A DNA stretch of 64,000 bases. Source: Octopus sinensis (lineage: Eukaryota). The stretch lies in NCBI RefSeq assembly GCF_006345805.1, contig NC_043007.1:71424001-71488000 (forward strand), written 5' to 3'. Both the position numbers and the translations under genes were made by a program. Under the pieces are notes generated by a model. It saw only the letters and a list, made by a program, of their open reading frames with translations. It did not search any database and had not been told where the DNA came from. Below, in pieces: positions 1,680-63,539 of this stretch (position 1 is its first letter; every line of letters begins with the position of its first letter).

Positions 1680-2574
1680 ATACATGTGTGTGTGTGAGTG
1701 TGTGTGTGTGCTATGGGTAACCGCGCGCCATTAGCCACACGTGTGTTTGTATATGTATTTACGTGCGAATACGTGTTTACATGTTCTGTGTGTTCATGCA
1801 TGTGTGTGTGTGTGTGTGTGTTTGTGTTAGTATGTGTGTGTGTGTGTGTGTGTGTGTGTCTGTCTGTCTGTTTATATCTACGTGTATTTCTGTTGGCGTG
1901 TAGGTGTATGTTCTATGAAGTAGGTGGGTAGACCGGTTGTACTAGCGCCTTGTATATCCGCAGAGAGAACATCACCATTTTATCCTTACTAAATTGGACG
2001 ACAAGATTGTGGCAGTCAGTAAAATCTCTCCTCACTTCTGTTAGTTTTTCCACTTAATGATGACCATTGTTTTTCTTTACTTTCGTTCCTCTTTGTTCCC
2101 TTTTCTCTCTTTTTCTTCCTACTCTTCAAATCTAAACGACACACTATTGCATATTCTTGGGTCTAACCCTATGCTTATCGCTTATCTGTTCTCTAGGCAT
2201 ACAGCTGGATATTTTTTAATTTTTTTTTTTATTTTCTACTACTGGCTTCATTTTCTATTTCCAATTACTACTGTAGTGGATTTAACATGGGAACTCTGAG
2301 TGGCAGTGCAACATTCAAAAGTCTGCAAACATTACAAATGCAGTACATCAGTAAAATAAAAGAGGATAATTCTGAAATTTGAAATATGGTATTCTTTAAT
2401 GTAACAATTAAGATTCAAATTATGTATGTTTTCATTTTCCATTTGTATTTTCAATTAAATATAAAAAAAAAAAAAATTGCTCTCATCTGCAAATGCAAGC
2501 AATTATGAAATATCTATTGATTAAATTGTAGATTATTGGATATATTAATTATTCATGAAATCATTAGTTAAACA

Positions 2575-3520: not shown

Positions 3521-5442
3521 TTAATGCCCATAATCTTCATTACAAATCATCATTTGAACTATATAACTCATATATGACTCTCCAACATAATCTGGATCAC
3601 AGCCATAAGTAACACGTATACTAACATCCTGTAAATTTTCAGTAGATTCTGGAGATAATTTGACAAAGAACTTATGTCCTTCAGGCTTCCCCAAATTCAA
3701 TTCTGATGTGCCTTCAGCTAATAATGTAACTAGATCTGAACCATCTGAACCTTCTTCCTCTGTTATCATATTGCTCTTTGATACCTTAATATGAACTTTG
3801 CCACACATACTAGTGGCAGTAATTGTAATATTCCCAGCCCAGCTTGGATAAACAAAATCAAAGACTGGGTTTGTTTTAACTGACACTGTGATACCTGAGA
3901 CTGTTTTGTTAAATGGCAATCCTCGAATATGTTTCTCTACATCACATGGTTTAATTCCCACAAGTTCATAGGCTTTAATAAAGGGGGTTAGATCTTTCCC
4001 AAGATCATAGGCAACCTTCAAAGTATCACAAGCCCCTGAAGTGAAATCTGTATGAGGATGCCAATATATTTCATTGGCAATAAGGAAAACTCGATAAGCT
4101 TCCTTGATATCCATTTTTAATTCGTGTACAATGTAGTAAAAAATAAAATTATAAATCCCACTTCCATGATGAGGATCCGTGTTTTCAGTGAAGTTATCTA
4201 CATGACTTATAGATATATTGTCCAGGGATGGGTCTGCCATAAATCTCAATGCTTCCTCATCTTTCATGATGTTGAAGCCAATTAACCAGTCATTCCCACT
4301 TGCATAAGCTTCAGTGACCTCTCCAGTCATATCAGAAAAAGCCTCATTCATAGATCCAGACTGATTAAAGTAAAGCAATCCAGAGTGTTGTTCTGTGAAG
4401 CCATGGGCAAGTTCATGCCCGATAATATCAGCATCTGTTAAAGGATAAAAGTATTTATAGCCATCACCAAATGTGCAATATGTCCCATCCCAAAATGCGT
4501 TTTCAAAATCTTCTCCAAAGTGAACACGCAATATAGCTTGTTCGTTTAGTATTGAAGTATTATACCATTCCTGAAACATTTGAGATACTACACTGCCGTA
4601 ATAGAAAGCATCAAGTGCTGGAGATGACGCTGCATTGACACTATCATTAAAACCAACGTCACAAAGATAATACATAGGATCTGTATTATTAGAGTCTGCC
4701 TCAAAACTGTTTTGCATGTCTATAACCTTTACATAATTGTTTTCAAGGAAACACATGTCACCAATTTGAGTTACAAAAGCTTTGTGATTTTTCTCACTAA
4801 ATTTGTATATTCCTGATTTTTCATTACCGCCGGAACCAGTCAGTACTCTGGAAATTGTATCTAAATTGTTATATTTCAACAGTATTTCTCCAGTGTTACC
4901 ATCAATGACAAATGTAGGCCGTTTAATAACTATTTCATTTTCTATTCGATAATTAATATTGTATACTAATCGAGGTTTGTCATTTTCATCCATGAAAATC
5001 ATAATTTCATATTCTGGTTCGATACTATTTGCGTAAATCTCATCTCCCTCTGCTTTAAAAGCAATATCAAAGACATCTGATTTGGAAAGCTTTGGTTTTA
5101 CATTTGTAATATCATCTTCAATTCCTTGAATAAATGTTCCTGTTGCATCACCAGTCAAATGTCCATCTTTATCTTCTGTAACAGTTAATGAAGCATCAAA
5201 AACAGGAACACCTAAGAACTTCTCTTGTAAGCGTAAAACTTCTGTGCCTTCAACTGTTTTGATACGGTTTGACTCTTCAACTTCTTCATACTCCTTCAAA
5301 CCAAGAAGATCTCTGACTGTTACTTCAGCTTTATCTAAATGACGCCGCTGAAACGGAGCTGAGGGATGATAAATCATCCTCCTTGCTCTTTCATGGGCAT
5401 CAACGCGATAAGCTGCGTCAGATGTCTTTATCAGTAACAAAC
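3521..5442 (-). CDS. M4 (thermolysin/pseudolysin-like) zinc metalloprotease, copy 1, exon 2 (prodomain, catalytic domain, C-terminal extension)
   Basis: 639-aa open frame with HELAH (HExxH), GSMNEAFSD (third Zn ligand), NAFWDG, FGDG..FYPL, DPHHGSG and a PepSY-like FVIDGNTGEIL. It starts at a splice acceptor (minus strand tttttag|GT, AG at 5444-5443), not at a real ATG. Confidence 0.95.
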
Positions 5443-10166: not shown

Positions 10167-10215
10167 TGCCAAATAGGAGATGCCAGGAATAAAATAAAAC
10201 CATCAAATGACTCAT
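10167..10215 (-). CDS. M4 protease copy 1, exon 1 (signal peptide MSHLMVLFYSWHLLFG-)
   Basis: ATG at 10215; 49 nt followed by donor GTAAGT (10166-10161). Phase 1 matches the exon 2 acceptor (A|GT = Ser), giving hydrophobic MSHLMVLFYSWHLLFGSLLLIKTSDA and a 656-aa precursor. Paralogous exons occur at 19.8 and 49.3 kb. Confidence 0.85.
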
Positions 10216-19647: not shown

Positions 19648-19736
<89 letters not shown>

Positions 19737-19828
19737 TTCATGTAGAAAATGAGTCATTTGTTATCATAAGAAAATTATAAAGATGAAATGTATGTAAATG
19801 TATGATAAATTCTTGAAAATGTACTTTC

Positions 19829-19877
19829 TGTCAAATAAGAGATGCCAGAAATAAAATATAACCCACAAACGTCTCAT
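19829..19877 (-). pseudogene. Orphan M4 exon 1 (MRRLWVIFYFWHLLFD-) with mutated splice donor
   Basis: Homologous to the exons at 10167-10215 and 49262-49307, including flanks. Donor reads GAAAGT instead of GTAAGT, the TATA segment is missing, and no exon 2 lies between it and copy 1. Confidence 0.8.
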
Positions 19878-21129
19878 GATTGCGTAATTTTCACAAATAT
19901 TATGCACATCCTAAAAACCAGCTGAAGGTTTAAACTGATCCTTTCTTGCCTTTATCATGATTAAGGGGCCACCCAGACTCTCAAAACCCACGTCAATCCA
20001 GGGTAAAGCTTACAATCAAATGGGGACGCCAACTAATTGCTTTTGTTACATATATTGATAATAGATTATTTTAGACCCTATTAATTCTGAATCGGTACTT
20101 GACATTTAAGATGAAATAACGAGGTATTTGTTTAATTATATATTCTTTCTCATTAATTCTTATTGCTAAAGCTACAGAATTCGTTCAATAAAAATCAGAA
20201 GCAATCTTTATAGGTTACATTCAGGGAAACTAAATACTATAATAGCAATAATCAGCATAGATTAAAATTAATAATAATTTATACTCTTTTCCACGCCGTA
20301 TTATTTTAGTTTCTGAAATAGTCTTCAGCCATTCCTCCCATAAATTTCTCTCCAACAAAAAAAAAAACAACAAAAAAAAACGATCCATTTGATCAATCAT
20401 AAGCAGATACAGCATATTTCTTTCCTTAAACTAATTACAATGAGCCAGGGCAATTGCCTTACGACACAGGGCAGTTTTTAAAATTTATTACATTTTGTGT
20501 CATTGTCAATAGGCAAGTATTTCTTTTACTAAATTACTATAACATAAAATACTATAACCAAAATGTTATAACTTGCTAAAAATGTATTATAATTTAGTTA
20601 ACCCTTACCTCTAACATGGTTTCTGCATTCAAAGTTATTCAATGATTTTAAATCATAGTTTGGAATTCGCACAAAGGAGTAACAATGCTTCTCCTTTATT
20701 TGAGAGGTTTTTAAAAAGATAAACACACAAATTAACCATACTTCAAACAGTAACCATCTCTGGGCTGATTTAATATTACAGTAAATAAAACACTCTGGAT
20801 GTAAATGGAAACTATTTACTAGGGATCAAGAAGATTAATGTTAACGGAGACTTCTATGCATCGTTTACTTCAGCAAATGAATAATAAAATGTGAATAATA
20901 AAATGTTCAAAATTAATATTTTAATGTATTTTCATAGGACTTTTATGGCCCTTTTTCTGACATGACTTAGAGCAACTCTCTCCCCCCCTCTCTCTCTCTC
21001 TCGTTCATTATGCTATTAATTTTTGTTTCTAAATTTTAACATTGTTAACTCCTTTCTCAATTAGTCACCTTTAAAAAGATCCCAAATATGATTTCAGTCT
21101 TGAAAATGACACAAATACAGGTGAGAACA

Positions 21130-30098: not shown

Positions 30099-30708
30099 GC
30101 AATTACAATTAGTACAAATACTAATTTTCTACCCTGATACTTTTCTGTTTAATTGTTTTACCGCTCTTCTGGTTCGATATTCCCAAATTATTTGTAACCT
30201 TATATTTCCACCTCACATGTGACACTGATTTGTACAAAAATCGTTCGCCGTACGCAGACATGCCAATGAACATATGAATGCATGTATATTTCAGAGTCTC
30301 TAAGTTTCCCGTTATTCCTTTTGTATTATACTTTTATTGTACCTTTATATATTTTTATATTCCGTTTGTTTTCTCCGTATATTTCCTTTTTTTTTTTTAC
30401 CTTTTCCTTATAAGCTCTGTAACCCCCCGCTTTTAATCTCTACACAGATGCGTGTTGATGCATATACGCTTCATGTATGCATGTATGTGCGAATGTTTGT
30501 GCGTGTGTGCGTGTGTGCGCGTGTGTATGTACATACCTATGGGTGTGTACGTGTACTTTTGCGTATGCATTTACGTGCGAATGAGTGTTTACATATTGTG
30601 GGCGTACACGCAGTTGGTGTGTGTGTATCTGTGCATGCATTTGCGTGAGTCTGTGTATGCAGGAGGGTATATCAGTTCTATGGACGCCTTATATTTCTAC
30701 AGAGTGAA

Positions 30709-31507
30709 CGCCACCCCCATACTCTTACGCCACCCCATACTCTTACGCCACTCCCATACTCTTACGCCACTCCCATACTCATACGCCACCTCATATCCTT
30801 ACGCCACCCTCATACTCTTACGCCATCCCCATATCCTTACGCCACTCCCATACTCTTACGCCACCCCATACTCTTACGCCACCCCATACTCTTACGCCAC
30901 CCCATACTCTTACGCCACCCCATACTCTTACGCCACTCCCATACTCTTACGCCACCCCCATACTCTTACGCCACCCCATACTCTTACGCCACTCACATAC
31001 TCTTACGCCACCCCCATACTATTACGCCACCCCCATACTCTTACGCCACCCCATACTCTTACGCCACCCCTATACTCTTACGCCACTCCCATACTCTTAC
31101 GCCACTCCCATACTCTTACGCCACCCCCATTCTCTTACGCCACTCCCATACTCTTACACCACCCCCATACTCTTACGCCACTCCCATACTCTTACGCCAC
31201 TCCCATACTCTTACGTCACCCCCATACTCTTACGCCACCCCATGCTCTTACGCCACTCCCATGCTCTTACGCCACTCCCATACTCTTACGCCACCTCCAT
31301 ACTCTTACGTCACTCCCATACTCTTACGCCACCCCATACTCTTACGCCATCCCCATATCCTTACGCCACTCCCATACTCTTACGCCACCCCATACTCTTA
31401 CGCCACCCCCATCCTCTTACGCCATCCCCATCCTCTTACGCCAACCCCATATCCTTACGCCACTCCCATACTCTTACCCCACCCCCACACTCTTATACCA
31501 CCCCATA
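30709..31507. repeat. 18-19-bp minisatellite (CGCCAC[T/C]CCCATACTCTTA), roughly 40 copies
   Basis: Directly visible; explains ORF 30452-31528. Confidence 0.95.
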
Positions 31508-32004
31508 TTCTTAGATAATAGCTTATGACCACAGTTTTTCACATTAACGGTAAAAGTTTTCTCATTTCTTTCTTCTTTATTCCATTCTCTCCCTTTTTCT
31601 TCTTGTTCTTCAACTTTAATTCACACCCCTTCTTGTATATTTTGGGTCTCGCGATCTGCTTATCGCCCATTGGTTCTTTTGACATACTTCTCAACATTTT
31701 TGGCGTTTAATTTTTCTCTTTTATTTTCTTTTGTACTACTGGCTTCTCAAGTCAGTACTGTGGTGATGTGGACTTGGAAATTCCGGGCGACAATGTACTC
31801 TCCATTTGAGTGAGGTAATCTCGGCGTGATGTTTAGCAATGTTGAGCGAAATTCATTGCTTAACTATTATAGCAAGAGATTCAAATAGCTTAGAAGCACA
31901 TTTAGAAAGCATGTATGTAATTAAGTATGTATGTCTTTATGTATGTATGTATGTTGTATGTATGTATGTATGTATGTATGTATGTATGTATGTATGTATG
32001 TTTA

Positions 32005-32822
32005 TGTGGAAGTCGTTCTCCTTCAGTTAACTCTCCATAAAAGAGTTGTTTTGGCATCCTTGAATCCTTCATTCTGACCAGATGACCACTCCATCTGAGC
32101 CTTTGTTTTAACACAAGAGCTTCTATACTTTCACACTGAGAGCCTTCCAATATTTCAAGATCACTGATGCAGTCCTTCCACTTAATGCCATAGATCCGTC
32201 TGAGGCACATCTGATAGAAACGTTCCAGTTGTTTAAGAGGTGTAAGGACTTGCTGAAGGCTTCCTTAAGAGATGCTTGCATCTCTCCTGACACATGGCAA
32301 GGCATAGCTATTGATCGTAGCAGGTAGTGAAGGATTGTGTGAGGGGACAGCCACTTTTGAGAAATCTCGAGTTGCACATGAGAAAGTAAGGAGGGATGTC
32401 AGGAAGGGCATCACTGTTACACTTCTAGAAGGGAAGGGTCTTTCTTTGATGCTGGCATGCAATGTCTGTTCAAGACCCTACCTCAGTAAAGCTGGACTCA
32501 AGAGTCATCTTCGTAGTCATAAAACGAGACAGATGAGTGACAACCTGGCCACTGGTGGTGGTGTAACACACCATACTAATCATATCTGTCGGGCATGTGG
32601 AAGAGAGTGTAATTCGGCAGGAGGACTTAAACGACATGCAAAGGTACATGAAGCCCAGTTACAACTACAGCCGGCTATTACCAGTAAAGGTTTTAGTTGC
32701 CAATTTTGTACAAGATATTGTAGCTCTTTAGCTGAGCTAAAAAGTCACATTCGATCACAGCACCAGTAACAGTTAAGCTTCGTGCAATGGCCATACTCGA
32801 TAACGAGGGGACAGCCATAATA
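32005..32822 (+). mobile_element. 5'-truncated, 5'-inverted RTE-like LINE with C2H2 zinc-finger tail
   Basis: Minus-strand piece RLRWSGHLVRMKDSRMPKQLFYGEL followed by plus-strand KDLLKASL..WQGIAIDR and three CxxC..H..H fingers (ORF 32311-32769). Confidence 0.8.
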
Positions 32823-34099
32823 ATGTATGTATGTATGTATGTATGTATGTATGTATGTATATATACACACTAGGTTGTCCCGTTTTAATGGTCAAAGATT
32901 TTTATGACAACACTATTGTCCGTTGTGGTGCCAGTGGATGAAAAAAATTTAGACTTACAAAGTAACATGGATCTAAAACCATTTTTGTGACTACACAACC
33001 CTCCCTAAGTTGAAAAAATGCGTTTCTTTTTAAATCAAAATTAGTCGTTTTTACTGTGCGCGAGTAATATCAAATCGAAAGGTATTTGTTTAATATTTGT
33101 TTCATAAGTCTCATGCTAGAAAATTATGGTGCAAGTGCATAATTGTTTTTAATGATTTTATGACAAGCTCAATGAAACATGGTTGACAAAATATTTTTTA
33201 TCGTAATCAGCAACAACCTCCCAAGATATATTTTTTAATTTACTTTTAAAGTATATAATACAAGTTGTACTATAAAAAGAGCCCTCACTACATACCTATT
33301 GAGCTGATTTTTAACAGGAAATATTATGATTAGATGTTCATTGTTCACTTAGCACTTAAGCATGAAATAACTGAGATTCATTTAACTTCCATTCCAAATC
33401 ATCCAAGAGACTGCTGTTCAAGCTCGTTATCCTTTTGTTCATGTGAAGGGTTGCTCAGTATTTGGCTGGATTACTTGTCTGATTTTCTATGTTCAATAAT
33501 CTTTTCATTTTGCTTTTCGTGTCTCGCAACAGCTTTGATATATCTTGAACCTTTTCCGTCAAGAATACATTTTCTGAGAGCCCTTTGATCTTTCTCGGTA
33601 CTTTCCTTGTCTTCCTTGTCTTTTTTTTGGTCATGTCTTCTACGTTTTTGGGCATTATATCAAAAGGGTCAGGTCATTATTTCAAAAGAGCAGTTTTTCG
33701 GTACAGTTCTCTCGCTCTTCCTGCTCTTCTAAACAATTTCTACTTTTCAGACACACCAGCTTTTTGTATGTCTGCAGCAAATCTAAAACTTTCTCCTTCA
33801 CATGATTTATTCAGATAGACTGATTTGAGGATTTCAAAATGATTTTGTAATAAAATCCTATAAAATGAATTTGTTAAGGAGAGAATTGAGGAATTTCAAA
33901 AATAACAATATTATAAGATTCAAATTATGTTTATTTATATTTTTCATTTGTGTTTTCAATTGAACATTCGCATAAATGTAAGATTAAAGCTATCTGGAAA
34001 TGCAAGCAATTATGAAATATTTATTGATTAAATTGTAAGTTATTTGACATATTTATTATTGAAACCAGTAAACAAATGTCTGATTAAGTTTTTAATACC

Positions 34100-36012
34100 T
34101 TAATCCTTAATACACATTTCCCGGTGCAAAAAATCTTCAATAAATGTCTCGGAAACAAAATTAGGATCACACCAATAAGTAACACGTAAACTAACATTTT
34201 CCAAATTTTCTCTAGATTCCGGAGACAACATGAAGAAAAATTTATCTCCTTTAGGCTTTCCCAAATTCAGTTCTGATGTGCCTTCAGCTAACAATGTAAC
34301 AGGATCAGAACCATCTCCTTCTGTTAGCATATTGTTCATTGATACCTTAATATGAACTTTGCCATTCATGCCATACATACTAGTGGCAGTAATTGTAATA
34401 TTCCAAGCCCAGCGTGGATAAACAAAATCAAAGACTGGGTTTTTGTTAACTGACACGCTAATACCTGAGGCTGTTCTGTTCAATGTCAATCTTCGAATAT
34501 GTTTCTCTACATCACATGGTTTAATTCCCACAATTTCATAGGCTTTAATAAAGGGGGTTAGATCTTTCCCAAGATCATAGGCAACTTTCAGCATATCACA
34601 AGCCCCAGAAGTGAAATCTGTATGAGGATGCCAATATATTTCATTGGCAATAAGGAAAACTCGGTAAGCTTCCATGATATCCATTTTTAATTCGTGCACA
34701 ATGTAGTAAAACATAAAATTATAAATGCCACTTCCATGATGGGGATTCATACTTGCTTTGAAGTTATCTACATGACTTACAGATTTATTGTCTAAGGATG
34801 GGTTTGACATAAATCTGTATGATTTCTTATCTTTCGCGATATAGACGCCAATTAACCAGTCATTTTTATCTATATAAGCTTCAGCGACTTCTCCTGTTAT
34901 ATCAGAAAAAGCCTCATTTATAGATCCAGACTGGTTTAAGTAAAGCAATCCGGAGTGTTGTTCTGTGAAGCCATGAGCAAATTCATGTGCAACAACATCA
35001 GCGACTGTTGTAGGATAAAAGCGTGTATGGCCATCGCCAAATGTGCAATATTTCCCATCCCAGTATGAACCTTCATAATTTTTCGCATAATGAACACGCA
35101 ATATAGCTTGTTTGTTTAGTATTGAAGTATTATACCATTCCTGAAACATCTGAGATACCATACTACCATGATAAAAAGCATCAAGTGCTGGAGATATCGC
35201 TGCATTGACACTATCATTAAAACCAACGTCACAAACATAATCAATAGGGTCTGTATTAAGAGAGACTTTCTCAAAACTGTTTTGCATATCTATAACCTTC
35301 ACGTAATTATTTTCCAGGAAACACATTTCACCAATCTGAGTTAAAAAAGCTTTGTGATTTTTGTCACTAAATTTGTATATTCCTGATTTTTCATTACCAC
35401 CGGAACCAGTCAGAACTGTGGAAATTGTATTTAAATTGTTATATTTCAATAGTATTTCTCCAGTGTTACCATCAATGACAAACGTAGGCCGTTTGATAAC
35501 TTTTTCATTTTCTATTCGATAATTAATATAGTATGCTAATCGAGGTTTGTCATTTTCATCCATGAAAATCATAATTTCATACTCTGGTTCGATACTATTT
35601 GCGTAAATCTCATCTCCCTCTGCTTTAAAAGCAATATCAAAGACATCTGATTTGGAAAGCTTTGGTTTTACATTTGTAATATCATCTTCAATTCCTTGAA
35701 TAAGTGTACCTGTTGCATCACCAGTCAGATGTCCATCTTTATCTTCTGTAACAGTTAATGAAGCATCAAAAATAGGAACACCTAAGAACTTCTCTTGTAA
35801 GCGTAAAACTTCTGTGCCTTCAACTGTTTTGATACGGTTTGACTCTTCAACTTCTTCATACTCCTTCAAACCAAGAAGATCTCTGACTGTCACTTCAGCT
35901 TTATCTAAATGACGCCGCTGAAACGGAGCTGAAGGATGATAAACCATCCTCCTTGCTCTTTCATGGGCATCAACACGATAAGCAGCTTCAGATGTCTTTA
36001 TCAGTAACAAAC
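34100..36012 (-). CDS. M4 zinc metalloprotease copy 2, exon 2
   Basis: 636-aa frame with HEFAH, GSINEAFSD and NPHHGSG; acceptor tttttag|GT at 36014-36013; colinear with copy 1. Confidence 0.95.
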
Positions 36013-36999
36013 CTAAAAAATGAAAACATTACGATTATTAATAACAGAACCATTAGGAGTTTTTCTTTACGATGGAGACTAATTTTTTTGACAATACATT
36101 CATACATGGTGAATAAACAGCAGGGTTAGGCCTGTATCTATTTGGAAAAGCATTGAACTAGTTTTCAATTCAAATTAATACAAATATAAGCTTATAATTT
36201 AAAATATATTGCTCACTAAAAGAAATACATGAGTCTGACGCGTTTCAGCATGAACAAATTCATCCAAATAGAAATTCAATGAGTTTCTATAGTTAATTTA
36301 ATGTTTGGTGGAATAGGGAGGTGATTTGTTAGATGGAATGACTAATTTTAAGTGAATGGATGTGTATATCCTTTTAGTAAAACAACAACCTCTTTCTGAA
36401 AACTACAAGTTAACTAAGGTCTGTACATTTTTGGTGTAGGATAACTTTGCTGATGATTTGAATGCATTCTGGTTATATTCGACGTTGTTTTTTAAGTTGC
36501 ATTCCAGTATTTTTTACTTCATATGTCCCTTCAAGCGATTCATCATTGACTTACAATGATTATAACAAAAAGCTATCAAATGTATTATTAAAAGTGAAAA
36601 ACCTGAAAATTATAACCTTGATTAGTGTATGACTTATAAGTCATTTATGGGCATATACTTGATGCTAGAATCTTTGAGATGCAATTATATAATTTCGTGT
36701 AGAGTAGTACATTAGGTTACTAAAGCCATTGTTCCCTGATGAGTGTAAGACTTATTCGGCAGTTATGGGAATATAAATATGATGTAAGAATCTTTAAAAA
36801 TGCAAATTTATAGTTTCATGTTTAAGAATTATAAATATAGAGTAGTATTGCATTTTGTTTATCTGAATTCCAACAGAATGACATTTATGCTTTATTTCAA
36901 TATTCATATAAATTCTGCTTCATACCAAACACTCTATTGTATAACATAATTATTTTTCTTGGCTAAATAATCTGCAATAGAAAAGAACAATTAGCTGTT

Positions 37000-42304: not shown

Positions 42305-42451
42305 TATATATGTATATATGTTTGTATGTATGTATGTATGTATGTATGTATATATGTATGCATGTATTTATGTATGTATGCATGTATGTGTATGTGGATT
42401 TATCTGTATATATGTATCTATATATGAGTATATTTTTATACGGATATACAT

Positions 42452-44050
42452 AGGTTCCCTGCTTGTGTCCTGAAGGTGTATCGACACCAACTTGCATCTC
42501 CCCTTTCTAATCTGTGGAGAAACTCACTGGATGCTGGCTATATTCCTAAAAACTTTCTGTCCCAGTCTGTTGTCCCAGTTTTCAAAAAGGGAAACAAGTC
42601 CCTTGCAGTGAACTACCGTCCGATCTCACTCACCTCTCATATCATCAAGGTATTTGAGAGGGTGGTGAGATCTCGAATAACCCAATTTCTGGAAAGCAAC
42701 AGACGGCTGATCTCTAACCAACATGGGTTCCTTAATGGAAGGGACTGCCTAACGCAGCTCCTGCATCACTTTGATGACATTTTGAGAGCTTTAGGAGAGG
42801 GATCCAACACCGATGTCATCTACCTTGATTTCAGCAAGGCCTTCGACAGGGTTGATCACAAGATCCTATTGAAAAAAACTATCCAGCATTGGTGTCTCTG
42901 GAAAGTTACTGAAATGGATCAAGAGTTTCCTGACAGACAGATCTCAACATGTTGTAGTTGAAGGGTTAAAATCAAGCCCAGCCAAAGTCAGTAGTGGCGT
43001 TCCGCAAGGCACTGTGCTGGGCCCACTTCTTTTCATCATCTACATTAATGACATTGATGACATCATCAAGCACAGCAACATAAAAATCTTTGCAGATGAT
43101 TCCAAGCTCCAGAAGGTCATAAATGAGGCGAGTGACCGGACATGCCTTCAGTCAGATCTACTGGCTGTTATCCAATGGGCAGAAAAAAACAATATGCTGC
43201 TGAACGAGGATAAATTCGAGTTAATCTACTTTGGAAAAGAGGATGCCCTGAAACTCCCATACTCCCTTCCTTCAGGTGAAACTCTCGTGGCATCCAACAA
43301 CATCAGAGACTTGGGAGTAATTGTGGACAACAACATAAGCTGGGCCACTCATATAAACACCAAAGTTGACATGGCCCGCAGAATGTGTTCCTGGATTCTC
43401 AGAACTTCCAGTCGAGAGATATCCACACCATTATCCTTCTCTTCTCCACTTTTGCCCGACCCCACCTTGAATACTGTTGTCCACTGTGGTCTCCCCACAC
43501 AAAACAAAGTATCATAAAAGTTGAAGCACTTCAAAGGGCAATCACAAAAAAGATAGATGGCATGACAGGCCTCGACTATTGGGGTCGACTAGAAAAGCTA
43601 AAACTTTATTCTCTCCAACGTCGCCGTGAGCGTTACATCATCTGCATGATGTGGAAAATATTCCATCAGCATTGCCCAAATGATGTTGGCATCACCTTTA
43701 AGGTACATCCAAGGCTTGGGCCCCGTGCCATCAGCCCAAAACAAAAATCGCACTCTCATCTCATAACAACAATACGGCACAATTATTTCACCTCAATTGG
43801 CCCCGCTCTCTTTAACATTACACCAAAACACATTAAAACAGAAACAGACCCTATAGGATTCAAGAAGTCTTTGGACAGATTCCTTCAAGAAATCCCGGAT
43901 AAACCCCCTACACCCGGATATGTCTCTGTAAACATTAACTTTCTACTTGAGTGGGCCATAGTGCCCAAATTCTGACTTGAAAGACTTCACCAGGTGGTGC
44001 TATTAGGTTAGACATGGCCTGGGCCAATAATGGCCGAAACCTATCAAAGT
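42452..44050 (+). mobile_element. 5'-truncated CR1-clade LINE (reverse transcriptase)
   Basis: NYRPISLTS, YLDFSKAFD, SGVPQG, FADD, RPHLEY and LYSLQRRR, split by two frameshifts. Confidence 0.92.
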
Positions 44051-49261: not shown

Positions 49262-49307
49262 TTCCAAATAGGAGATACCAGCAATAAAGCAAAACCGACA
49301 AATGCAT
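49262..49307 (-). CDS. M4 protease copy 2, exon 1 (signal peptide MHLSVLLYCWYLLFG-)
   Basis: ATG at 49307, 46 nt, donor GTAAGT at 49261-49256, phase 1. It is the only exon-1 homolog seen between exon 2 of copy 2 and copy 3; implies a 13.2-kb intron and a 652-aa precursor. Confidence 0.8.
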
Positions 49308-60694: not shown

Positions 60695-61130
60695 GCATAG
60701 AGGGAGTGTGACAGATTTGTAAAAACTCTGCAACTATCGCAAATGTCATAGGTCAGTAGAAAGAAAAGCCTTTTAAGCGCTGTTTCATAAAGCCATCTTG
60801 ACTATTTTATTTTTATATATTTTGTACCACAGGCTTCTCAAGTCACCACTGTGGTGTTCTGCACTTCGAAGGATTGTTAAATGGTCTTGAAAAGTTATTA
60901 AAATGTGAACTTGTTAAAGGAAATAATTTAAGAATTTCAAAAATAACAGTATTCTAATGGAATTTTTACAATTCACAAAATTTTCTTTTTTTTTTTACTA
61001 AACATTCACAGGAAAGTAAGATCATAGCTGTCTGAAAATGCAAGCAATAAGGAAATATTTATTGATTAACTTATAAATTAATGACCATAGTATTCATTAT
61101 TGAAACCAGTAGTTGAACATTTGGTTATAA

Positions 61131-61369
61131 TTTTGATACTCATAAACTTCATCACACATCATTCTATGAACTCAATATTCTTCATATATCTCAGGAACAA
61201 AATATGGATCACAACCATAAGTAACATGTACACTGACATTTTCTAAATATTCACTATCTGGGGGGATTTGACAAAAACATTTTCTACATATTCATTCTAG
61301 AGGGAATTTGACAAAAACTTTATGTCCTTCCAGCTTTCCGAAATTCAGTACTGATGTACCTTTAGTTAA
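61131..61369 (-). pseudogene. 3' fragment of a further M4 paralog
   Basis: Translates to KGTSVLNFGKLEGHKVFVK...YLENVSVHVTYGCDPYFVPEIYEEY*VHRMMCDE, with stops and an internal duplication. Followed by its own 3'UTR-homologous block (~60900-61130). Confidence 0.85.
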
Positions 61370-61680: not shown

Positions 61681-63539
61681 TCATATGGCTCTATCCAACC
61701 CATAAGAAACACGTACACTAACATTTTTTAAATTTTCGCTAGATTCTGGAGATAATTTGACAAAGAACTTATGTCCTTCAGGCTTCCCCAAATTCAATTC
61801 TGATGTGCCTTCAGCTAATAATGTAACTGGATCTGAACCATCTGAACCATCTCCCTCTGTTAGCATATTGCTCTTTGATACCTTAATATGAACTTTGCCA
61901 CACATACTAGTGGCAGTAATTGTAATATTCCCAGCCCAGCTTGGATAAACAAAATAAAAGACTGGGTTTGTTTTAACTGACACTGTGATACTTGAGACTG
62001 TTTTGTTAAATGTCAATCCTCGAATATGTTTTTCTACATCACATGGTTTAATTCCTACAAGTTCAAAGGCTTTAATAAAGGGGGTTAGATCTTTCCCAAG
62101 ATCATAGGCAACCTTCAACATATCACAAGCCCCTGAAGTGAAATCTGTATAATGATGCCAATATATTTCATTGGCAATAAGGAAAACTCGATAAGCTTCC
62201 ATGATATCCATTTTTAATTCGTGTACAATGTAGTAAAAAATAAAATTATAAATCCCACTACCATGATGAGGATCCGTGTTTTCAGTGAAGTTATCTACAT
62301 GACTTATCGATATATTGTCCAGGGATGGATCTGCCATAAATCTCAATGCTTCCTTATGTTTCAGGAGGTTGAAGCCAATTAACCAGTCATTTTTATCTAT
62401 ATAATTTTCAGTAACTTCTCCTGTAATATCAGAAAAAGCCTCATTCATAGATCCAGACTGATTCAAGTAAATCAATCCAGAGTGTTGTTCTGTGAAACCA
62501 TGAGCAAATTCATGTGCAACAACATCAGCATCTGTTAAAGGATAAAAGTATTTATAGCCATCACCAAATGTGCAATGTTTCCCATCCCAAAATGCCTCTT
62601 CATAATTTTTCCCATAATGAACACGCAATATAGCTTGTTCGTTTAGTATTGAAGTATTATAACATTCCTGAAACATTTGAGATACTACACTGCCGTAATA
62701 GAAAGCATCAAGTGCTGGAGATATCGCTGCATTGACACTATCATTAAAACCAACGTCACAAAGATAATACATAGGATCTGTATAATTAGAGACTCTCCCA
62801 ATACTGTTTTGCATGTCTATAACCTTTACATAATTATTTTCCAGGAAACACATGTCACCAATTTGAGTTACAAAAGCTTTGTGATTTTTGTCACTAAATT
62901 TGTATATTCCTGATTTTTCATTACCACCGGAACCAGTCAGTACTGTGGAAATGGTATCTAAATTGTTATATTTTAACAGTATTTCTCCAGTGTTACCATC
63001 AATGACAAATGTAGGCCGTTTAATAACTACTTCATTTTCTATTCTATAATTTATATCGTATACTAATCGAGGTTTGTCATTTTCATCCATGAAAATCATA
63101 ATTTCATATTCTGGTTCGATACTATTTGCGTAAATCTCATCTCCCTCTGCTTTAAAAGCAATATCAAAGACATCTGATTTGGAAAGCTTTGGTTTTACAT
63201 TTGTAATATCATCTTCAATTCCTTGAATAAATGTTCCTGTTGCATCACCAGTCAAATGTCCATCTTTATCTTCTGTAACAGTTAATGAAGCATCAAAAAC
63301 AGGAACACCTAAGAACTTCTCTTGTAAGCGTAAAACTTCTGTGCCTTCAACTGTTTTGATACGGTTTGACTCTTCAACTTCTTCATACTACTTCAAACCA
63401 AGAAGATCTCTGACTGTTACTTTAGCTTTATCTAAATGACGACGCTGAAACGGAGCTGAGGGATGATAAATCATCCTCCTTGCTCTTTCATGAGCATCAA
63501 CACGATAAGCTGCATCAGATGTCTTTATCAGTAATAAAC
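61681..63539 (-). pseudogene. M4 protease copy 3, exon 2, disrupted (exon 1 outside the window)
   Basis: Acceptor intact (63541-63540). GAG>TAG at 63390-63388 (Glu50 of the exon-2 frame). An apparent ~16-nt deletion near the 3' end gives YGLDRAI* and removes the two C-terminal Cys. Catalytic motifs HEFAH and NEAFSD are intact. Confidence 0.85.

What the first reader, a model, noticed from the sequence alone, without database searches (positions are those of the whole stretch)
34700..36012. Prodomain homogenised, active-site cleft diversified between paralogs
By manual count, copies 1 and 2 differ at about 7 of the first ~190 residues (5 nt differences over 5041-5340 vs 35611-35910) but at about 18 of the 40 residues running up to and including HExxH. 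The adjacent intron is visibly much more diverged than the prodomain DNA. The substrate-binding NAFW strand (thermolysin Asn112-Trp115 equivalent) reads NAFW, GSYW and EAFW in the three copies. Inference: gene conversion on the prodomain plus diversifying selection on specificity, as in toxin and immune families.
Basis: partly seen in the sequence, partly recalled or inferred. Interest (0 to 1): 0.75.

Follow-up and report, generated by a model that had tools for sequence, protein, structure and literature searches.

The report
Octopus protease copies share one propeptide
Neighbouring copies of a bacterial-type zinc protease gene in an octopus keep copying each other's propeptide DNA while their substrate pockets stay different; this is a known pattern of gene duplicates, but one copy has changed pocket residues that almost never vary in this enzyme family.

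Summary
The counts hold: 5 mismatches in 300 nt, 8 of 194 prodomain residues and 18 of 40 cleft residues differ between copies 1 and 2. The window holds three tandem M4 (vibriolysin/LasB-like) peptidase genes matching Octopus sinensis proteins.

Gene conversion on the prodomain core is supported. Synonymous rate is about half that of the mature part (p≈0.01). Flanking non-coding DNA differs by 19-24%. The mature part of copy 2 groups with an O. bimaculoides orthologue, while the prodomain core groups by species. Collapse is unlikely: the O. vulgaris orthologues and one independent contig carry the same prodomain.

Toxin-like diversifying selection is not shown. Cleft dN/dS is 0.5-0.8, M2a does not beat M1a (p=0.26), dS rises there too, and cleft types are stable across species. 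The better reading is old specificity divergence protected from conversion, with short tracts also shuffling cleft segments (copy 3 is a mosaic).

Copy 2's lineage changed near-invariant pocket residues (LasB N112G, A113S, L197Y). Copy 3 has an in-frame stop here. Tissue and substrates are untested.

The parts
49262..49307 (-). Copy 2 exon 1: start codon and signal-peptide-like N-terminus, GT donor, phase-1 intron of about 13.2 kb
   Evidence: tblastn of the P0122 N-terminus, 100%; donor; two contigs of RNA-guess runs continue from 36012 into this exon's letters (loose ends)
36013..36390 (-). Alignable 3' end of copy 2's intron; 70 of 367 sites differ from copy 1
34100..36012 (-). Copy 2 exon 2: whole prodomain, catalytic and C-terminal domains of an M4 peptidase, open frame
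   Evidence: model pLDDT 91, rmsd 1.4 A to vibriolysin MCP-02
35429..36010 (-). Copy 2 prodomain (FTP + PepSY; exon codons 1-194; maturation boundary placed by homology, approximate)
35537..35890 (-). Homogenised prodomain core (codons 41-158): 2 of 118 residues differ from copy 1, none between copies 1, 3 and P0004
34742..35092 (-). Divergent cleft region (codons 307-423): 41 of 117 residues differ between copies 1 and 2
35060..35071 (-). GSYW edge strand (LasB Asn112-Trp115 equivalent)
35009..35011 (-). Thr at the LasB Leu132 position (S1'/S2')
34973..34987 (-). HEFAH zinc motif; the equivalents of LasB Glu164, Arg198, His223 and Tyr155 are also kept in all copies
34817..34822 (-). Ser-Tyr at LasB Ala196-Leu197 (S1' pocket wall), shared with the O. 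bimaculoides orthologue
34103..34513 (-). C-terminal beta-sandwich, PPC-like; as divergent between copies 1 and 2 as the cleft
   Evidence: 5sv5, E 2.7e-4
3521..5442 (-). Copy 1 exon 2 (NAFW type), open frame
10167..10215 (-). Copy 1 exon 1; exon and flanks differ from copy 2's at 138 of 565 sites
61681..63539 (-). Copy 3 exon 2 (EAFW type); in-frame stop in the prodomain near 63390 and a shortened C-terminus; its exon 1 was not found in the window
62392..62523 (-). Copy-2-like tract inside copy 3, covering HExxH to YIDK, in an otherwise copy-1-like exon
   Evidence: max-descent P=4e-5; coordinates transferred

Best explanation
These are secreted zinc endopeptidases of the M4 family, carried in a tandem cluster older than the split of O. 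bimaculoides from O. vulgaris/O. sinensis. Ectopic gene conversion keeps copying tracts between copies. In the propeptide, a folding chaperone and inhibitor (general M4 knowledge) that is probably interchangeable among copies, converted tracts are tolerated and fix, so the copies look young there. In the cleft and the PPC-like C-terminal domain, conversion would erase copy-specific substrate preferences and is selected against. Both silent and replacement differences therefore pile up as a peak of divergence, without dN/dS above 1. Copy 2's lineage shifted its S1/S1' pocket early (N112G, A113S, L132T/S, L197Y in LasB numbering) and has kept it. Occasional short tracts move cleft segments between copies and make mosaics such as copy 3. 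Shown: the divergence pattern, tree conflict, mosaicism and conserved catalytic residues. Inferred: selection as the cause of the peak, altered specificity, interchangeable propeptides, secretion.
For: Synonymous rate ratio prodomain/mature 0.52 (p=0.013); core/rest 0.13 (LRT 21, window chosen after the fact); cleft/prodomain 2.8 (p=0.002). Non-coding DNA on the 5' side is 19% (intron end) and 24% (exon-1 region) divergent, so the similar tract is bounded on both sides. Mature part: the AU test rejects the by-species tree (p=8e-14) and copy 2 joins O. bimaculoides P0124 at bootstrap 97-100. Core: the AU test rejects the orthologue tree (p=0.03). V63, E141 and E145 are shared by all 8 O. sinensis/O. 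vulgaris cluster rows and absent from P0124 and the three outgroup rows. O. bimaculoides paralogues share their own M240, G270 and I295. In all 7 other homologue pairs checked except P0008/P0009, the prodomain diverges more than the cleft, for example 90 of 192 vs 37 of 117. 7 of 25 O. sinensis/O. vulgaris orthologue differences swap between residues both found in other cluster copies. Copy 3 mosaic: runs test P=1e-5. Cleft rate is faster in copy 2 than copy 1 against Argonauta (22 vs 8, p=0.016), and 3 of 6 strict copy-2-lineage changes fall in 18 subsite columns of 305 (one-sided p=0.003). N112 is kept in 98 of 99 and A113 in 99 of 99 bacterial-type homologues.
Against: The AU test on the whole prodomain does not reject the orthologue tree (p=0.175), and KH/SH on the core are 0.09. 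Only three clean derived sites carry the by-species signal. Four-fold sites show no prodomain-vs-mature contrast, and no long GENECONV-type run joins copies 1 and 2 (longest 3, P=0.51). Subsite enrichment for copy 1 vs copy 2 is borderline (7 of 18 vs 52 of 287, p=0.057; 6 of 16 vs 19 of 107, p=0.093). No codon test shows omega above 1. Only three DNA sequences were available. Gene order was not compared for O. bimaculoides, whose models are partly faulty (P0002, P0011, P0135).
Confidence: 0.62

Rival explanations
1. One reading: prodomain conversion plus ongoing diversifying (arms-race) selection on cleft residues, as in toxin and immune families.
For: Several subsite codons differ at two or three bases (AAC/GGT/GAG at N112). 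The N112 position reads N, G, E and D across octopus copies. Cleft omega exceeds prodomain omega (0.58 vs 0.15, p=0.005). M2a fits a small class near omega 4.7.
Against: M2a vs M1a p=0.26 (whole exon) and 0.43 (mature part); cleft omega is below 1 and not above the rest of the mature part. Cleft types are nearly fixed between O. sinensis and O. vulgaris, and GSYW is shared with O. bimaculoides. Power is low with three sequences.
Confidence: 0.17
2. Conversion plus relaxed constraint. Redundant copies drift in the cleft, and once a region has diverged it simply stops converting. Copy 2 may be a weak or inactive enzyme.
For: Whole-exon omega is 0.35-0.5. Copy 3 carries a stop and a Trp-to-Cys change at a conserved site, and an orphan exon 1 and a relic exon end show turnover. 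Asn112 hydrogen-bonds the P1' backbone in thermolysin simulations (PMC12316308, passages), so losing it could lower activity.
Against: The cleft is the most conserved region of the family (mean top-residue frequency 0.76 vs 0.42 for the prodomain), so drift should hit it least. Copy 2 keeps all zinc and catalytic residues, and its pocket changes are shared with O. bimaculoides. Spliced-type contigs carry it in two studies (RNA status is a guess).
Confidence: 0.13
3. No conversion: the prodomain is simply under strong constraint, including on silent sites (RNA structure or editing context).
For: Prodomain omega is low (0.15). Orthologue prodomains are nearly identical between O. sinensis and O. 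vulgaris (0-1 of 194). Four-fold sites are uninformative.
Against: Orthologues (copy 2 vs P0124) differ at 10 of 118 core residues while older paralogues differ at 0-2. Derived residues are shared by all copies within a species group. The prodomain is usually the faster region.
Confidence: 0.05
4. Assembly collapse or polishing made the prodomains look alike.
For: Near-identical tandem repeats are prone to it, and contig assemblers drop minor variants (tool caveat).
Against: O. vulgaris proteins from another assembly have the same copy-specific prodomains (copy 2 vs P0001: 0 of 194). One 1,191-nt contig in run X1 covers 34951-36012 with 1 other letter and runs on into exon 1. A contig in X7 covers 35175-35772 with 1 other letter.
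Confidence: 0.03

Closest known systems
M4 peptidases of the vibriolysin/pseudolysin (LasB) branch, e.g. MCP-02 (3nqx), LasB (1ezm), ProA (6ya1)
   Same: FTP + PepSY propeptide, Peptidase_M4 and M4_C domains, HExxH plus downstream Glu, Arg and His, PPC-like C-terminal domain; rmsd 1.4-1.9 A.
   Different: Animal nuclear genes with an intron after the signal exon, in a tandem cluster. Copy 2 has G-S for the near-invariant N112-A113, T for L132 and Y for L197; copy 3 has E at 112.
Peak of divergence under gene conversion: primate red/green opsins (PMC3924837, passages) and Tigriopus GOT1p1/p2 (PMC3728101, abstract)
   Same: Old duplicates group by species in homogenised regions and by orthologue at the functional site; rare conversion of divergent segments makes mosaics.
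   Different: Here the homogenised part is a coding propeptide while the intron stays divergent, at least four copies take part, and the divergent zone is broad (cleft plus C-terminal domain). The functional difference has not been measured.
Toxin and host-defence precursors with conserved pro-regions and hypervariable mature parts (conotoxins, cathelicidins; recalled, no call)
   Same: Pro-region far more alike than the mature part.
   Different: Those show omega above 1 and fast turnover between close species (recalled); neither is seen here.

Membership tests
M4 peptidase (thermolysin family) | Peptidase_M4 and M4_C domains above Pfam cut-offs | tested here: met
   3 of 3 copies
M4 peptidase (thermolysin family) | HExxH, third zinc ligand Glu, and the Arg, His and Tyr catalytic helpers | tested here: met
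   invariant in the 10 octopod rows shown
M4 peptidase (thermolysin family) | FTP + PepSY propeptide | tested here: met
   FTP passes its cut-off and PepSY is just under; fold match to the MCP-02 propeptide, E 4e-13
M4 peptidase (thermolysin family) | Asn-Ala-(Phe/Tyr)-Trp edge strand | tested here: not met
   Met in copy 1; copy 2 has GSYW and copy 3 EAFW. The motif is typical rather than defining, so these are variants within M4.
M4 peptidase (thermolysin family) | Zinc-dependent cleavage before hydrophobic P1' residues | not testable with these tools
   needs enzyme assays
Concerted evolution with a selected peak of divergence | Duplication older than the species split | tested here: met
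   (mature part, AU 8e-14); gene order in O. bimaculoides not checked
Concerted evolution with a selected peak of divergence | Homogenised region groups by species | tested here: met
   core AU p=0.03 and three shared derived sites; weak, since the whole prodomain gives p=0.175
Concerted evolution with a selected peak of divergence | Silent divergence rises with replacement divergence at the functional site | tested here: met
   cleft/prodomain 2.8, p=0.002; cleft/rest of mature 1.74, p=0.049
Concerted evolution with a selected peak of divergence | The divergent sites change function | not testable with these tools
   only subsite mapping
Toxin/immune-type diversifying selection | A site class with omega above 1 | tested here: not met
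   three sequences, low power
Toxin/immune-type diversifying selection | Rapid change between closely related species | tested here: not met
   0-3 of 117 cleft residues in 5 O. sinensis/O. vulgaris pairs
Toxin/immune-type diversifying selection | Expression in venom gland or immune tissue | not testable with these tools
   run tissues are not shown

The most novel reading that the evidence does not exclude
Octopuses have turned a bacterial-type M4 protease into a modular family. One propeptide, kept interchangeable by conversion, chaperones and inhibits several enzymes. Copy 2 is an M4 peptidase with a rebuilt S1/S1' pocket (GSYW, T132, Y197) and a P1' preference unlike that of thermolysin or LasB, and short conversion tracts recombine pocket segments into new specificities such as copy 3.
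Probability: 0.3. Interest if true: 0.65.

Novelty: new member of a known kind. Interest (0 to 1): 0.42.

Why it matters
The evolutionary pattern is known from opsins and GOT1, so it is not a new mechanism. The value lies elsewhere. M4 peptidases are described as known almost exclusively from bacteria (PMC7851659, abstract passage), yet molluscs carry one clade of them and octopuses have expanded it. My paper searches listed no study of this cluster; most subscription journals are not covered. Copy 2 is a natural variant at residues that hardly vary among bacterial M4 enzymes, so it makes a direct test of what Asn112, Ala113 and Leu197 do for specificity. The cluster is also a caution that prodomain-based or whole-gene dating and dN/dS mislead for such copies.

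Tried and rejected
No whole genome is held for this window, so the other cluster copies were seen only as proteins, and codon tests rest on three sequences.

Four-fold-site scans and max-chi tests did not detect the prodomain dip (P 0.18-0.88). The same-amino-acid scan did (P 0.013-0.059, window chosen after the fact). The GENECONV-type run test found nothing for copy 1 = copy 2. M2a vs M1a was not significant; M7/M8 were coded but not run. The whole-prodomain AU test was not significant.

No RNA holder is listed on record; runs X1 and X7 are RNA by guess only. The contig lay could not settle whether copy 3's stop is real: that place was not among the rows shown (233 rows hidden) and contigs drop variants. 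Summed contig depth was not used as copy number.

Three look-ups of earlier scan findings returned nothing. Term searches in four cephalopod gland or venom papers found no M4-type enzyme named. The one held supplement of PMC7693380 was cut when stored, and I saw 2 of its 5 'elastase' rows, both unrelated. Its Tables S2/S4 and the bioRxiv supplements, which I could not see, may bear on tissue. No paper on thermolysin Asn112 mutants turned up in the listing.

Full report
What is there. The window holds three copies of a long exon on the minus strand: 3521-5442, 34100-36012 and 61681-63539. Each encodes an M4 metallopeptidase with FTP, PepSY, Peptidase_M4 and M4_C domains. The closest solved relatives are LasB, ProA and vibriolysin MCP-02. 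An AlphaFold model of copy 2 (pLDDT 91) superposes on MCP-02 at 1.4 A and shows a PPC-like C-terminal sandwich. Copies 1 and 2 match O. sinensis proteins P0003 and P0122. A short first exon lies 4.7 kb (copy 1) and 13.2 kb (copy 2) upstream. Copy 3 has an in-frame stop near 63390; the O. vulgaris orthologue P0126 is open there and ends at the same shortened C-terminus. The 18 octopus, other mollusc and mollusc-like rows form one clade apart from the bacterial-type rows (FastTree support 1.0). An old transfer from bacteria is a likely origin, but I did not test it.

Observation. It is confirmed: 5 of 300 nt, 8 of 194 and 18 of 40 residues, and NAFW/GSYW/EAFW. The intron end differs at 70 of 367 sites, against 18 of 584 nt over the prodomain, and the exon-1 region at 138 of 565. 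Two corrections apply. The near-identity is confined to codons ~41-158. The divergent zone is wider than the 40 residues: 21 of 53 between EAFSD and HHGSG and 41 of 134 in the C-terminal domain, with a quiet helical stretch between them (4 of 76).

Not an assembly artefact. O. vulgaris proteins from a separate assembly repeat each copy's prodomain: 0, 0, 1 and 0 differences in 194 residues for four orthologue pairs. I laid 4 of the 24 listed runs. One contig in X1 covers 34951-36012 with one other letter, linking the prodomain to the GSYW cleft, and continues into exon-1 letters. An X7 contig covers 35175-35772 with one other letter. These are contigs, so they show presence only.

Gene conversion. 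A three-sequence codon model rejects equal synonymous rates: prodomain/mature 0.52 (p=0.013), core/rest 0.13 (LRT 21, window chosen after the fact), cleft/prodomain 2.8 (p=0.002). Four-fold sites alone do not show the whole-prodomain contrast (7 of 71 vs 17 of 134). The stronger evidence is tree conflict. In catalytic, cleft and C-terminal trees, copy 2 joins O. bimaculoides P0124 (bootstrap 97, 100, 99). On 8 rows, the by-species tree is rejected for the mature part (AU 8e-14). In the prodomain the octopus cluster copies group by species (bootstrap 72). The orthologue tree is rejected for the core (AU 0.03; KH 0.09) but not for the whole prodomain (AU 0.175). Rows with under 80% cover and P0009 were left out of the trees, and P0128 and the distant P0007/P0130 pair out of the orthologue-swap count. 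V63, E141 and E145 are shared by all eight O. sinensis/O. vulgaris cluster rows and not by P0124, P0130, P0005 or Argonauta. O. bimaculoides paralogues P0124 and P0135 share their own M240, G270 and I295, so homogenisation there covers a mature-domain stretch. In 6 of 7 other homologue pairs the prodomain diverges more than the cleft, so the octopus pattern is an inversion of the family norm.

Conversion is not limited to the prodomain. Of 158 informative exon sites, copy 3 matches copy 1 at 115 and copy 2 at 43. The copy-2 matches cluster around HExxH to YIDK (max-descent P=4e-5; runs P=1e-5). Of 25 differences between O. sinensis and O. vulgaris orthologues, 7 swap between residues both present in other cluster copies, including a two-residue change next to the catalytic His. 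I did not compute a formal null for this count.

Selection in the cleft. Cleft omega is 0.57 (grid range 0.4-0.8) for codons 307-423 and 0.55 (0.3-1.25) for the 40 residues. M2a does not beat M1a (p=0.26 and 0.43). Cleft omega is not higher than the rest of the mature part (p=0.20-0.24). Cleft types differ at 0-3 of 117 residues in five O. sinensis/O. vulgaris pairs. An arms race is therefore not shown, though three sequences give little power. Other evidence points to an old functional shift. Copy 2's cleft has evolved faster than copy 1's against Argonauta (22 vs 8, p=0.016; P0124 19 vs 4, p=0.003). Copies 1 and 2 differ at 41 of 117 cleft residues, more than Argonauta and the distant unnamed homologue P0009 (37 of 117). 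I mapped sites with the LasB subsite table of PMC12316308 (passages). Copy 2 and P0124 share G at N112 (N in 98 of 99 bacterial-type and 11 of 12 other mollusc or mollusc-like rows), S at A113 (A in 99 of 99 and 12 of 12) and Y at L197, and carry T or S at L132. All zinc and catalytic residues are kept. Three of six strict lineage-specific changes fall in the 18 subsite columns (one-sided p=0.003). The plain copy 1 vs copy 2 enrichment is borderline (p=0.057).

How it most likely works. Conversion fixes where it is harmless (the propeptide) and is purged where it would overwrite copy-specific pockets, leaving a peak of silent and replacement divergence. This is the model described for opsins (PMC3924837, passages) and GOT1 (PMC3728101, abstract). 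The divergence pattern, tree conflict and mosaicism are shown. Selection as the cause, changed specificity and interchangeable propeptides are inferred. The biological role is open: a secreted digestive or mucus-processing protease is my guess from the family, and no call gave a tissue. Term searches in four gland or venom papers named no M4 enzyme. Supplements that I could not see in full may bear on this.

Verdict. The toxin-like diversifying-selection half is not shown. This is a new instance of a known evolutionary pattern in a protease family for which my searches listed no study, with one testable enzyme variant. Interest 0.42.

Noticed in passing
window 19700-20355 (- strand; ATG at 19877): Orphan third copy of exon 1 and its upstream region, 23-25% divergent from the other two. 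The donor position reads GA instead of GT and no exon 2 of its own follows; probably a relic of a lost copy.
   Followed up: partly
window 60899-61369 (- strand): Degenerate duplicate of the C-terminal exon end and 3' flank just downstream of copy 3 (47% protein identity to copy 1's last 64 residues).
   Followed up: partly
window ~63390 and ~62664 (copy 3): In-frame stop in the prodomain and Cys at a conserved Trp, neither present in O. vulgaris P0126: a recent pseudogene allele or an assembly error.
   Followed up: partly
window 2402-2553 vs 33903-34060: Copy 1's 3' flank resumes homology to copy 2's about 0.9 kb further on, suggesting an insertion just after copy 1's stop.
   Followed up: no
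P0006, P0014-P0016, P0018-P0020: M4 peptidases named from Argonauta, scallops, clam, abalone and apple snail group with the octopus copies in one clade apart from the bacterial-type rows; candidate ancient transfer from bacteria into molluscs.
   Followed up: partly
P0094 (Massilia) and P0013 (unnamed): The only other departures from Asn-Ala at LasB 112-113 among the 112 homologues aligned: GAYW and SAFW.
   Followed up: no
window 30708-31513: C-rich minisatellite, 19-bp unit, about 43 copies.
   Followed up: no
window 42428-43517 (+): Frameshifted reverse-transcriptase remnant (RVT_1) inside copy 2's intron.
   Followed up: no
window 32308-32769 (+): Short frame with C2H2 zinc-finger-like matches; may be a repeat-derived or partial gene.
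   Followed up: no
P0002/P0123, P0126, P0129: Several database models carry duplicated or fused pieces (a repeated prodomain, or a neighbour's C-terminus as N-terminus), a sign of partial duplications or mis-joined models in this cluster.
   Followed up: no
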